From the NCBI GenBank assembly GCA_026706755.1, contig JAPOYG010000485.1, positions 1 to 45,661 on the forward strand: a stretch of 45,661 bases of DNA, given 5' to 3'. This document shows positions 14,062 to 16,131 of the stretch, piece after piece. Each line of letters opens with the position of its first letter. The stretch's first letter is position 1. Under the pieces are notes generated by a model. The model was not told where the DNA came from. It searched no databases and worked only from the letters and a program-made list of their open reading frames with translations. The stretch comes from Acidobacteriota bacterium (GTDB lineage: Bacteria; Acidobacteriota; Vicinamibacteria; Vicinamibacterales; UBA8438). The position numbers were made by a program, and so were the translations under genes.

Positions 14062-16131
14062 TCAGCGCCTGAGCGACAGTCCGCGCAGCACGGGCGTTCG
14101 CGGCATCGCGATCCGATCATCGGCGCGAAGTCTGCGCAGGGTGCGCGATCGCCCCTTGCCTTCGGCGTTCAGTACGTCGATTTCCTTCACGCGCGCAAGA
14201 GCAAGAACCGCATCGTCGAGATCCGAGAATCGGGCCGCGGTCCTGTTCGCCAGTGCGTGCCGCATCGTCTGCACGGTGACCGGTTCCTCGACGACAAGGG
14301 CGTGCAGCTCCGCCGGCATGTCATTGAGAAGCTGCTTCCTCAACTGTCTGGCTTCGAGGTCCTCGAAGCGGAACAGTCGCAACGTATCGTCCGATCGCAA
14401 CGCGTCCCACCCCAGCATCCCGAAGCCGCCCGAACCATAGTGTTCGAACGTGCCCGAAATGTCCCAGTGGCGCTGGATCATGACATCCCGCGCCGTCGGA
14501 TGTCTCGACAGGTGGAGGAACCAGAGCGCCCGTCGCGACTGCTGGGGACGGATGAAGAACGGGGTGTCGTACGTCGCTCCCGTGGTGTTGCGAATGTGAT
14601 CGCGCAACAACCTCTGCGCGAGCGCTCGTCCCCCAGCGTCGTTCTTCAGCCGAAGCAACTCGCGTATCCGCGATTCCGTCAAGTCGAGAGGTGCCACTGC
14701 CTTGACGTACTCCGGCGTGACGGCTAGGTGATTCATGAGGGCGTCGGCGGCAAGGGTCAGAATGACCTCCGCCGCCGGCAGCTTCTCAAGGATCCCGGCG
14801 ACGAGGTTCAAGCGGACTTGCGCAAAGCCGGTCTGGTCGAGAACGAAGATCGCGCGGCCGGCTCGCGGCTGGCGGCGCTTCACTTCCGCGATGATTGAGT
14901 CTGCCTCATCCTCGAATCGCCGGTTGCGGACGATGACCCTCTCCTCGTCCGCCCAACCACGTTCTTCAAGCGCCGCTCGAAGGCGGCGGACGTGAAGACA
15001 ATTCGCGTCCGTGAAGTAGTACCGGAAATCGAAGCGCAGAGGCTTGGAACGGCCTCGGTTCAGCCTCTTCTGTGCCGCCTCTGCTTCCTCGATCATGATC
15101 AGCGGCGTACCCGAGAGCGTCTCGCGGCCGTCCGTGAACGTCCCCCCACCGGCGAAGCCGTCTATCAGGTCGAGCCGGAACTCCTCGCGCGAGGGGTTGA
15201 CAGCCAGTCTGTCGAAGTAGGCCCGCAGGTAGCTGCGCAAGACGGTGAGCTTCGCCTTGCTGTGTTGCTCGATCAACGGAGGAGGATCGCCGGGAGCCCA
15301 CCTGAAGGACTGAACGGTCATTGCGCGGCGAATCGTAGCACCGCCTCGTGCTGGAAGATCAACTGCGGATGTCCCCTGCCAGCAGTTGGTTGCAGGCGCC
15401 GGCCTGCCGTCCCACGTGCGACCGTCAAGCTCGCGCCCGGCCTTCTTCTTCTGAGGCCCGCCCCACTGCTTGAAGAAGAACGCGACGCCCTGGTCGTCGC
15501 ATCGATCGCGGATCTCCCGTACCCAATCGATCCGGGTCGGGCGCGCAGCGGGCCCGCTCTCTCCCCCGACGATCGCCCAGTGGATCCCGTCGAGATCGAC
15601 CGCGTCGACGGGTCCCAGCAGTGGTTCGAACGAAGCGAAGCGGACCGCGGCGGGGGTCGCACGCAACTCGACGAGGCGCCACAGGTAATCGGCGTTTTCG
15701 ACGCTGGTGCCCAGCCACACGTTCGGCAGGAAATCCAGACGCCGGACGACTTCCCGCATCCGTTCGGGCCGCTTTGTCAGCACCTGGAATGTGTGCCAGC
15801 GCGCCGCCGTCATCGTCTTCCAGACGCGGCGGATGAACGACTCCGGAACCTCTTCGTGAAACAGGTCGCTCATGGAGTTGACGAAAACGAACCGCGGCTT
15901 CCGCCAGCGAAGGGGAAGGCGCAGACTCGCTTCGTCGCAGCGCACCGCGCCCGTCCAGACGTACCGTCCGTCGCTCGGCCGCGTGACGTCGCGATACTTC
16001 GCCTGCCCCATCGCCTCCAGGCGTGCCGCCATGCGCATGGCGTAGCAATTCGTGCAGCCAGGGGACACAACCGTGCAGCCGACGACGGGATTCCAGGTGG
16101 CGTCCGTCCACTCGATGTCGGTGGTGGCCAT
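14062..16131 (-). CDS. fusion of a phage Gp37/Gp68-family (DUF5131, three-Cys) domain and a TcmP-like 'three-Cys-motif partner' domain
   Basis: ATG 16131 lies 38 nt after the pglX stop, and 689 codons follow with no internal stop. N-terminus '[31 protein letters not shown]...FFFKQWGG...[10 protein letters not shown]' matches Gp37/Gp68. From Met271 (ATG 15321), '[22 protein letters not shown]', '[13 protein letters not shown]' and 'IFVLDQTGF' match TcmP. The first 303 aa of track ORF 14062..17040 overlap pglX and are junk. Confidence 0.8.
   Translation of the reverse strand: [689 protein letters not shown]

What the first reader, a model, noticed from the sequence alone, without database searches (positions are those of the whole stretch)
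14062..16131. Fused Gp37/Gp68 (DUF5131, three-Cys) and TcmP protein embedded inside the BREX operon: candidate new accessory module
Seen in sequence:
- One uninterrupted 689-codon frame starts 38 nt after the pglX stop.
- Residues 1 to ~245 carry the hallmark N-terminus of the phage Gp37/Gp68 family (PF07505/DUF5131/COG4422): '[26 protein letters not shown]' (C-x7-C-x2-C). They end with the usual '...[10 protein letters not shown]'.
- From Met271 (ATG 15321) the sequence looks like the 'three-Cys-motif partner protein' TcmP (TIGR04474): '[21 protein letters not shown]', Gly-rich '[13 protein letters not shown]' and 'IFVLDQTGF'.

Established knowledge: these two families are normally encoded by adjacent separate genes, and their function is not experimentally defined.

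Here no stop codon separates them. The ~25-aa linker '[24 protein letters not shown]' reads like a translated spacer. The gene is ~57-65% GC by hand-counted lines, against ~70-75% for its neighbours.

Inference: this is an independently acquired cassette. It may be a Cys3-metal or FeS enzyme joined to a Rossmann-like, methyltransferase-like domain, acting on nucleic acid. It may have been recruited as a second modification or effector module of BREX.
Basis: partly seen in the sequence, partly recalled or inferred. Interest (0 to 1): 0.75.

Follow-up and report, generated by a model that had tools for sequence, protein, structure and literature searches.

The report
Fused radical-SAM/methyltransferase-like cassette inside BREX
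A real 689-residue gene fuses an iron-sulfur "radical SAM"-type enzyme to a methyltransferase-like partner and sits inside a type 2 BREX phage-defence operon; it is a mobile, uncharacterised cassette that in many bacteria lies next to DNA adenine methyltransferase/restriction genes and is already a database-listed, untested defence candidate.

Summary
The gene runs 16131..14062 on the minus strand (689 codons) and starts 38 nt after the pglX stop. It carries DUF5131/PF07505 (E 4e-98) and TcmP/TIGR04474 (E 2.6e-50).

Corrections:
- The Cys motif is C-x6-C-x2-C.
- The operon is type 2 BREX (Pgl).
- pglX is frameshifted.

The fusion is not an artefact. Two other assemblies share it, and 8 of 79 reference loci are fused, with at least 10 fusion/split changes on the family tree.

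Predicted folds: the N-half is closest to spore photoproduct lyase, a DNA-acting radical SAM enzyme. The C-half is closest to RlmJ, an N6-adenine methyltransferase, but has DQTGF where DPPY would sit.

The same pair occupies the pglX–pglY slot in three further BREX-2 loci and has diverged in step with the BREX genes. Elsewhere it is a mobile cassette. In 48 of 79 genomes a large DNA methyltransferase or restriction gene (mostly type IIG) lies within 10 kb.

PADLOC already lists related pairs (PDC-M30/M41) as untested candidates.

Best reading: an autonomous, SAM-using, nucleic-acid-directed module that complements adenine-methylation immunity. Its function is inferred, not shown.

The parts
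14062..16131 (-). Fused DUF5131-TcmP gene, 689 aa plus stop
   Evidence: ORF and sequence. Pfam, NCBIfam and PADLOC hits.
15400..16122 (-). DUF5131 / Gp37-Gp68 domain (residues 4-244). Radical-SAM-superfamily-like partial TIM barrel.
   Evidence: PF07505 E 4e-98. Weak TIGR04471 radical SAM match of 65 bits. AF2 model pLDDT 87. Best PDB fold match is spore photoproduct lyase, then lipoyl synthase. SFLD lists DUF5131 as a radical SAM subgroup.
16045..16077 (-). Three-Cys motif C19-x6-C26-x2-C29, the putative [4Fe-4S] ligands
   Evidence: All three are invariant in 73 sequences.
15322..15396 (-). Linker, residues 246-270. It derives from the DUF5131 C-terminal tail and includes the +1 nt / TAA-to-CAA junction that makes the fusion.
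   Evidence: Variable in length and sequence among fused homologues. Junction alignment against unfused L007 and L008. pLDDT below 50.
14065..15321 (-). TcmP half (residues 271-689): class I SAM-methyltransferase fold plus a conserved C-terminal region
   Evidence: TIGR04474 E 2.6e-50. AF2 pLDDT about 90. Foldseek best matches are RlmJ and DUF519, E 8e-7, TM about 0.5 normalised to the target.
15142..15162 (-). Motif I, DGFAGGG (residues 324-330), the SAM-binding glycine loop
   Evidence: G325, G328, G329 and G330 are invariant. hhalign pairs this stretch with the RlmJ DTHAGAG loop, at low probability.
14824..14841 (-). LDQTGF (residues 431-436) at the end of predicted strand 4, where N6-adenine methyltransferases carry (D/N)PP(Y/F/W)
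   Evidence: D432, Q433 and G435 are invariant. Strand position from the model. Equivalence to motif IV is inferred.
16170..19860 (-). pglX, directly upstream and split into two frames by a 2-nt deletion near 19172-19174
   Evidence: PADLOC PglX profile positions 1-222 and 229-1186 fall on two ORFs. Alignment with L001.
20619..24908 (-). pglW (NERD plus two kinase domains)
13553..13852 (-). FitA-like ribbon-helix-helix gene downstream. No PIN partner here.
   Evidence: PF22513. L007 and L008 carry RHH plus PIN in the same slot. A sigma-70-like site lies at 13880-13851.
3668..13587 (-). pglY (9895-13587), pglZ (7148-about 9900), brxD (5794-7131), brxHI (3668-5797)
   Evidence: PADLOC and Pfam.

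Best explanation
What it is. The gene is an in-frame fusion of a mobile two-gene cassette. It sits in the variable slot between the pglWX and pglYZ-brxD-brxHI parts of a chromosomal type 2 BREX (Pgl) locus.

How it most likely works (inferred).
- The N-terminal DUF5131 half holds a [4Fe-4S] cluster on C19/C26/C29. It cleaves SAM to a 5'-deoxyadenosyl radical, as its nearest structural relative, the DNA-repair enzyme spore photoproduct lyase, does.
- The C-terminal TcmP half is an RlmJ-like Rossmann methyltransferase fold. It keeps the SAM-binding loop but has DQTGF where DPPY would be. It binds nucleic acid and presents a flipped-out base, and possibly a second SAM, to the radical enzyme.
- The two act as an obligate 1:1 complex, which is why the genes always abut and fuse repeatedly.
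- The product is a covalent change to nucleic acid: a modification or a lesion.

Role. It is an autonomous accessory module, not a core BREX subunit. It is preferentially kept next to adenine-methyltransferase-based immunity (type IIG, type ISP-like, MmeI, type III, PglX). It most likely complements that immunity, in the way type IV enzymes such as BrxU are embedded in BREX.

Shown: the architecture, family membership, predicted folds, conservation, mobility and gene neighbourhoods. Inferred: cluster binding, SAM cleavage, a nucleic-acid substrate and a defence role.
For: Identity.

Folds:
- TcmP half versus RlmJ/DUF519, E 8e-7.
- DUF5131 half versus spore photoproduct lyase, probability 0.99, TM 0.47-0.49 normalised to the query, then lipoyl synthase.
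- DUF5131 is listed as a radical SAM subgroup in SFLD/RadicalSAM.org.
- Invariant Cys triad and a GGESG motif.
- Invariant motif I and D432/Q433/G435.

Obligate pairing:
- Same order and abutting genes in 79 of 79 reference loci. 8 are fused, with at least 10 fusion/split transitions on the TcmP tree.

Link to methyltransferase immunity:
- 44 of 79 reference loci have a large N6A methyltransferase within 10 kb, 32 within 2 kb and 19 within 500 nt.
- These fall into five different architectures.
- Four more loci with RM genes were found by Pfam.
- Among loci with DUF5131 but no clear TcmP, only 2 of about 32 have such a gene.

BREX lineage:
- The same pglX-pair-RHH-pglY slot is used in L007, L008 and L009.
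- The pair has diverged as much as the BREX genes: 76-88% identity for the pair against 65-89% for the BREX proteins.

Autonomy and mobility:
- Tn7-like cargo, plasmids, and CBASS or Shango neighbours.
- Close relatives occur outside BREX.
- The gene is intact while pglX is broken twice independently.

Defence candidacy: PADLOC PDC-M30/M41.
Against: - No experiment exists for any member.
- The fold matches are modest. The spore photoproduct lyase match has E about 4e-3, and the RlmJ match has TM about 0.5.
- The Cys spacing is not the canonical CX3CX2C.
- The canonical catalytic motif IV is absent from TcmP.
- 31 of 79 loci show no methyltransferase or restriction gene within 10 kb.
- Distances of TcmP and of the adjacent type IIG gene do not correlate (Mantel r = -0.02, p = 0.54). 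Outside BREX the linkage is therefore not a co-inherited module and could reflect a shared integration site or defence-island clustering.
- I had no matched random-gene control for the methyltransferase enrichment.
- DUF5131 is common in phages (181 records) without TcmP, so the enzyme need not be defensive.
Confidence: 0.5

Rival explanations
1. Integral BREX component. In this Pgl lineage the fusion is a dedicated second modification or effector subunit. It works on the DNA sites recognised by PglX and depends on BREX.
For: - Same strand, 38 nt after pglX, with no terminator-like site between them.
- The slot is conserved in four further BREX-2 loci and the pair co-diverges with the BREX genes.
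- Outside BREX the pair also sits beside PglX-like/MmeI-like methyltransferases.
Against: - Only one clade of the family is BREX-embedded.
- Close relatives at 70-76% identity lie in unrelated islands.
- The gene is perfectly conserved in two genomes whose pglX is inactivated by different lesions.
- A 2026 survey of BREX components and auxiliaries does not mention it in the text or the supplements.
Confidence: 0.15
2. Selfish or counter-defence cargo of mobile elements. The pair modifies the element's own DNA, or that of its host, to escape restriction. It rides with RM genes only because both are mobile-element cargo.
For: - DUF5131 is widespread in temperate phages, in 181 records.
- In prophiT36-2a it lies two genes after a phage DNA methyltransferase.
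- TcmP is found in S. meliloti prophages.
- The pair is Tn7-like cargo.
- It does not co-diverge with the neighbouring type IIG genes.
Against: - TcmP itself is essentially absent from sequenced phages: 1 weak hit in 50,697 records.
- In Gordonia phages DUF5131 lies in the integrase-repressor region, where prophage defence genes usually lie (the interpretation rests on my own knowledge).
- Co-orientation and retention inside a chromosomal BREX operon across about 30% protein divergence.
Confidence: 0.2
3. Artefact or decaying gene. The fusion is an assembly indel or a pseudogenised pair with no function.
For: The same window has a 2-nt deletion in pglX, so indels, real or technical, do occur in this assembly.
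Against: - The fused state is shared by L001 and by L009, a separate Illumina-type MAG.
- Fusions are seen in several short-read assemblies (L017, L025).
- There are no internal stops and all invariant family residues are kept.
- The pair is 99-100% identical to L001, while pglZ is 91%.
Confidence: 0.03

Closest known systems
[quoted passage not shown]
   Same: Both halves score far above the curated cut-offs. The order DUF5131 then TcmP is as in all 79 reference loci.
   Different: Here the two are one polypeptide, as in about 10% of loci. They lie inside a BREX-2 operon, as in one clade only.
PADLOC phage defence candidates PDC-M30 and PDC-M41 (Payne et al. 2024, bioRxiv 10.1101/2024.01.29.577857)
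   Same: The B protein is DUF5131 (E 1e-104 and 2e-94). The A protein is TcmP-like. The candidates were defined because they are embedded in BREX, DISARM or type I RM, and they are untested.
   Different: The TcmP half matches the A models only weakly (E 7e-14 and 7e-11). The source table writes the cassettes with the family shared by both (taken to be DUF5131) second, and here DUF5131 comes first. Here the two are also fused.
Spore photoproduct lyase (radical SAM DNA repair enzyme; PDB 4fhc)
   Same: Best structural match of the DUF5131 half. Both sit in megacluster 5 of RadicalSAM.org.
   Different: No detectable sequence similarity. The Cys spacing is Cx6Cx2C rather than CX3CX2C. The domain is shorter, at 245 aa. 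The substrate is unknown.
RlmJ / DUF519 (23S rRNA m6A2030 methyltransferase; PDB 7p9i, 2oo3)
   Same: Best structural match of the TcmP half. The motif I signature D-x-x-A-G-x-G is similar.
   Different: No DPPY; DQTGF is at that position. There is an extra C-terminal region of about 130 aa. No sequence-level relation.
BrxU/GmrSD-type enzymes embedded in BREX (Picton et al. 2021, PMC8565348)
   Same: An autonomous accessory gene nested in a BREX operon in the same orientation. It is the model for complementary protection.
   Different: Unrelated protein families and chemistry. BrxU is experimentally shown and this gene is not.

Membership tests
PF07505 / DUF5131 (Gp37/Gp68) | Pfam HMM above the gathering score | tested here: met
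   328.2 bits against 28.9, residues 4-244.
PF07505 / DUF5131 (Gp37/Gp68) | N-terminal three-cysteine motif | tested here: met
   C19, C26 and C29 are invariant in 73 sequences.
Radical SAM superfamily | Cys triad ligating a [4Fe-4S] cluster, canonical CX3CX2C | tested here: inconclusive
   The spacing is Cx6Cx2C. SFLD lists DUF5131 as a radical SAM subgroup. TIGR04471 scores only 65 bits against a cut-off of 355.
Radical SAM superfamily | Partial TIM-barrel fold shared with solved radical SAM enzymes | tested here: met
   Foldseek top hits are spore photoproduct lyase (probability 0.99, E 4e-3) and lipoyl synthase. The scores are modest.
Radical SAM superfamily | Reductive cleavage of SAM to the 5'-deoxyadenosyl radical | not testable with these tools
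   Needs anaerobic biochemistry.
TIGR04474 TcmP | NCBIfam HMM above the cut-off | tested here: met
   171.8 bits against 53, residues 289-558.
TIGR04474 TcmP | Encoded next to a PF07505 partner | tested here: met
   Fused here. Adjacent in 79 of 79 reference loci.
Class I SAM-dependent methyltransferases (RlmJ-like N6-adenine type) | Rossmann-like methyltransferase fold with a glycine-rich motif I | tested here: met
   Foldseek versus RlmJ E 8e-7. DGFAGGG is invariant.
Class I SAM-dependent methyltransferases (RlmJ-like N6-adenine type) | Catalytic motif IV (D/N)PP(Y/F/W) | tested here: not met
   The position after strand 4 reads LDQTGF. I therefore do not file it as an N6-adenine methyltransferase.
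PADLOC PDC-M30 / PDC-M41 | B-protein HMM match | tested here: met
   E 1.4e-104 and 2e-94.
PADLOC PDC-M30 / PDC-M41 | A-protein HMM match and the cassette order written in the source table (FAM_02577 or FAM_02405 >> FAM_00989) | tested here: inconclusive
   The A models match weakly (49.6 and 40.6 bits). FAM_00989 is shared by both cassettes and is written second. I take it to be DUF5131, which comes first here.
Type 2 BREX (Pgl), as context | pglW, pglX, pglY, pglZ, brxD and brxHI present in one locus | tested here: met
   PADLOC hits with E from 0 to 1e-205.
Type 2 BREX (Pgl), as context | Intact pglX methyltransferase | tested here: not met
   A 2-nt deletion splits it into two ORFs.

The most novel reading that the evidence does not exclude
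DUF5131-TcmP is a radical-SAM enzyme that acts directly on DNA bases, writing, rewriting or destroying a mark at or near adenine sites. It works functionally with type IIG, MmeI or PglX methyltransferases. That would be a new chemistry layered on m6A-based immunity, for example a radical-based restriction or hypermodification step, or removal of phage anti-restriction modifications.
Probability: 0.2. Interest if true: 0.85.

Novelty: new variant of a known kind. Interest (0 to 1): 0.55.

Why it matters
- The DUF5131/TcmP pair is a widespread gene pair with no assigned function. There are 922 TcmP clusters at 50% identity and thousands of DUF5131 proteins. The pair occurs in phages, plasmids and Tn7-like transposons, and is enriched in sponge symbionts.
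- This locus and its relatives give it a concrete, testable frame:
  - an obligate complex of a spore photoproduct lyase-like radical SAM enzyme and an RlmJ-like fold;
  - tight and repeated linkage to single-polypeptide adenine methyltransferase/restriction enzymes and to one BREX-2 lineage.
- If it acts on DNA, it would add radical chemistry to restriction-modification biology.
- It could also help explain how BREX-like systems are backed up.
- Homologues on P. aeruginosa megaplasmids and S. meliloti pSymA make experiments feasible.

Tried and rejected
1. Sequence search of both halves against PDB chains found nothing meaningful.
2. hhalign of the family alignment against E. coli RlmJ aligned only motif I, at negligible probability. 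The motif IV equivalence therefore rests on the model's strand order.
3. My first neighbour clustering gave a 1205-aa 'protein' directly downstream in 27 loci. It had no Pfam or PADLOC hit, and its translation was R/P/A/G-rich. It was a shadow frame. The real gene is on the opposite strand and is a type IIG methyltransferase/restriction enzyme.
4. I tested whether the pair and the convergent type IIG gene form a co-inherited three-gene module. There was no correlation of distances, so I rejected this.
5. The metagenome scan with the single protein returned mostly DUF5131-only contigs. It added few close full-length relatives.
6. The BFVD fold search gave only generic methyltransferase hits.
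7. Literature searches for DUF5131, TcmP, TIGR04474, PF07505, COG4422 and Gp37Gp68 found only annotation mentions and no functional study.
8. I rejected the idea that the lower GC marks this gene alone as foreign. pglX and the RHH gene share it.
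Full report
**1. The observation**

The gene is on the minus strand.
- The ATG is at 16131 and the TGA ends at 14062. There are 689 codons with no internal stop.
- The pglX stop (TAA, 16172-16170) is 38 nt upstream.
- Pfam places DUF5131/PF07505 on residues 4-244 (E 4e-98).
- NCBIfam places TcmP/TIGR04474 on residues 289-558 (E 2.6e-50).
- Standalone TcmP proteins of 416-418 aa start at the column aligned with Met271, the ATG at 15321.
- GC of the gene is 0.647. pglW, pglY and pglZ are 0.72-0.74. pglX (0.665) and the downstream RHH gene (0.67) are also low.

**2. Context in the window**

The surrounding minus-strand genes form a type 2 BREX (Pgl) locus:
- pglW, 24908..20619
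- pglX, 19860..16170
- the fusion
- a FitA-like RHH gene, 13852..13553
- pglY, pglZ, brxD and brxHI, down to 3668

The nuo operon lies at about 25-34 kb, so the locus is chromosomal. A sigma-70-like site sits just upstream of the RHH gene, and no terminator-like site lies between pglX and the fusion. This fits a pglW-pglX-fusion unit followed by an RHH-pglYZ unit, but these are consensus matches only.

**3. Is the fusion real?**

- A 99% identical contig (L001) and an 80% identical Acidobacteria MAG (L009) carry the same fused frame.
- The unfused relative L007 has the stop and start overlapping as TAATG. Relative to it, the window, L001 and L009 have one extra base 12 nt upstream of the ATG and CAA instead of TAA. 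The linker is therefore the old C-terminal tail of DUF5131 read through into TcmP.
- About 25 fused proteins of 590-690 aa at 43-69% identity are in the protein collection.
- Among 79 usable reference-genome loci, 8 are fused and 71 separate. The order is always DUF5131 then TcmP, and the genes abut.
- On a neighbour-joining tree of TcmP, at least 10 changes between fused and separate are needed.
- Fusion is thus a recurrent, easily reached state of an obligate pair.

**4. What the two halves are**

Neither half has a sequence relative in the PDB.

The TcmP half:
- The full-length AlphaFold2 model has mean pLDDT 75.5. The TcmP half is at about 90 and the linker below 50.
- The model matches class I SAM methyltransferases. 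The best matches are the rRNA N6-adenine methyltransferase RlmJ and DUF519 (E 8e-7, TM about 0.5 on the target).
- Motif I (DGFAGGG, residues 324-330) is invariant.
- After the fourth strand, where N6-adenine methyltransferases have (D/N)PP(Y/F/W), TcmP has an invariant D-Q-x-G followed by an aromatic residue.
- It therefore has the fold and probably the SAM site. It fails the catalytic-motif test for an adenine methyltransferase.

The DUF5131 half:
- A separate, deeper alignment gave a model with pLDDT 87.
- Its best PDB matches are spore photoproduct lyase (probability 0.99, E about 4e-3, TM 0.47-0.49) and lipoyl synthase. Both are radical SAM enzymes.
- SFLD/RadicalSAM.org lists DUF5131 as a radical SAM subgroup in the same megacluster as spore photoproduct lyase.

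No activity has been shown.

**5. Where else the cassette lives**

Inside BREX:
- In L007 (82% TcmP identity) and L008 (76%), the separate genes sit in the same place. The order is pglX, DUF5131, TcmP, RHH, PIN, pglY, pglZ, brxD, brxHI. L009 is the same, with the pair fused.
- These loci and the window form one clade.
- The pair has diverged about as much as the BREX proteins. Pair identity is 76-88%; BREX proteins are 65-89%.
- The cassette entered this BREX-2 lineage once and has been kept intact since.

Outside BREX:
- 78 of 79 reference loci are not in BREX. They come from about 15 phyla, mostly marine or sponge-associated MAGs.
- Relatives at 70-76% identity lie in unrelated islands.
- In cultured bacteria the pair is on plasmids:
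  - next to CBASS-like and other defence-type genes in S. meliloti pSymA;
  - as cargo of Tn7-like elements in Methylobacter and in P. aeruginosa megaplasmids.
- L004 sits beside TniQ.
- One contig (L093) has the pair about 4 kb from a Shango system.
- DUF5131 alone occurs in 181 phage records. TcmP occurs in essentially none.

**6. A specific neighbour**

By phmmer with six query types, 44 of 79 reference loci have a large N6-adenine methyltransferase within 10 kb. 32 have one within 2 kb and 19 within 500 nt.

The nearest such gene per locus is:
- In 25 loci, a roughly 1100-aa type IIG enzyme with N6_Mtase, Eco57I and Type_ISP_C domains. It is encoded convergently, and in many of these loci it ends within 3-30 nt of the TcmP stop.
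- In 12 loci, an MmeI-family enzyme.
- In 3 loci, a 1400-aa DrmMI-like or type IIG protein.
- In 3 loci, a type III methyltransferase.
- In 1 locus, PglX.

Pfam found RM genes in four more loci, giving 48 of 79. The fused homologues L005 and L006 also sit beside MmeI-family enzymes.

As a rough internal contrast, only 2 of about 32 metagenome loci with DUF5131 but no clear TcmP had such a gene. I had no matched random control. That the enrichment is large relative to a genome average is my inference.

TcmP distances do not track the distances of the adjacent type IIG gene (Mantel r = -0.02, p = 0.54). Outside BREX the juxtaposition is therefore re-made or recombined rather than co-inherited.

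**7. What is already known**

- PADLOC-DB v2 models match both halves: PDC-M41B and PDC-M30B at E 1e-104 and 2e-94, and PDC-M30A and PDC-M41A weakly.
- These candidates come from Payne et al. 2024. [quoted passage not shown] It tested only seven candidates embedded in Hma systems, and PDC-M30/M41 were not tested.
- I found no functional paper on DUF5131 or TcmP.
- A 2026 survey of BREX components and auxiliaries does not mention them.
- Sponge symbionts were reported as enriched in COG4422, which is gp37/DUF5131.
- The 'candidate defence module embedded in BREX' idea is therefore not new.
- The following were not found in the papers I could search:
  - the fused form;
  - the TIGR04474-type partner in this gene order;
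  - the BREX-2 lineage that retains it;
  - the fold assignments;
  - the methyltransferase linkage.

**8. Explanation and rivals**

Best reading (confidence about 0.5). The gene is an autonomous, mobile, SAM-using enzyme complex directed at nucleic acid. It is preferentially retained beside adenine-methylation-based immunity and complements it. It is not a core BREX subunit.

Points for autonomy:
- Its many non-BREX contexts.
- No co-divergence with the type IIG neighbours.
- It is 99-100% conserved between the window and L001 while pglX carries a different frameshift in each: a 2-nt deletion here and a 70-nt deletion there.

Points for a functional tie:
- The breadth of methyltransferase architectures it accompanies.
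- Its long retention in the BREX-2 operon.

Rivals:
- A dedicated BREX modification or effector subunit (0.15).
- Selfish or anti-restriction cargo of mobile elements (0.2).
- An artefact (0.03).

**9. Verdict**

The finding is a variant of a known but uncharacterised candidate. It is a good experimental target rather than a surprise. Interest 0.55.

Noticed in passing
window 19165-19180 (pglX); L001 7070-7240: pglX in the window has a 2-nt deletion (CCATAGAGGAG becomes CCATAGGAG) that splits it into two ORFs. The 99%-related contig L001 is intact there but has a 70-nt out-of-frame deletion further downstream, equivalent to about window 18175-18244. Two independent inactivating lesions in near-identical genomes point to recurrent loss or switching of Pgl/BREX, or to assembly indels.
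   Followed up: partly
window 13553-13909: A FitA-like RHH gene sits between the fusion and pglY with no PIN toxin. L007 and L008 carry RHH plus PIN in the same slot. A sigma-70-like promoter match at 13880-13851 overlaps the start of the RHH gene.
   Followed up: partly
L010, L012, L018, L019, L036, L051, L066, L076 and others (downstream of the pair): A roughly 1100-aa type IIG methyltransferase/restriction gene with a Type_ISP_C domain is encoded convergently. Its end lies within 3-30 nt of the TcmP stop in many genomes of different phyla. Its divergence is uncorrelated with that of TcmP. L036 has a second copy 5 kb upstream.
   Followed up: partly
L178 (P. aeruginosa pBJ86), L179 (Methylobacter plasmid), L004: The DUF5131-TcmP pair is cargo of Tn7-like/TniB-type transposons (TnsA, TnsB, TniB or TniQ nearby). 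34 P. aeruginosa plasmid records carry a TcmP homologue.
   Followed up: partly
L090 (Gordonia phage BaxterFox), L091 (Mycobacterium phage prophiT36-2a), L089 (Synechococcus phage Ssp-JY39): DUF5131 is in 181 phage records without TcmP. In BaxterFox the match lies in the integrase-repressor region, on the strand opposite to the annotated genes. In prophiT36-2a it is annotated 'RNA methyltransferase' and lies two genes after a DNA methyltransferase.
   Followed up: partly
window 2038-3569: A low-GC stretch (0.57-0.61) just beyond brxHI holds two plus-strand ORFs (280 and 232 aa) with no Pfam match. It may be further island cargo.
   Followed up: no
window 19861-20618: A gap of about 760 nt lies between pglW and pglX. 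It holds a 165-aa minus-strand ORF (20004-20498) with no Pfam match.
   Followed up: no
L172 7408-11251: In a relative with 76% TcmP identity, the DUF5131 and TcmP genes are separated by an ISL3 transposase insertion.
   Followed up: no
L008 877-4853: In this BREX-2 locus no pglW is seen upstream of pglX. A ubiquitin-like conjugation set (Multi_ubiq, Prok-E2, ThiF/JAB) lies there instead. L007 has transposases in that position.
   Followed up: no
L177 (S. meliloti pSymA) 8319-15251: Next to the pair lie an HD-domain protein, an AAA ATPase, a 3'-5' exonuclease, another radical SAM protein, a ThiF-family protein and a CD-NTase. This is a dense defence island.
   Followed up: no
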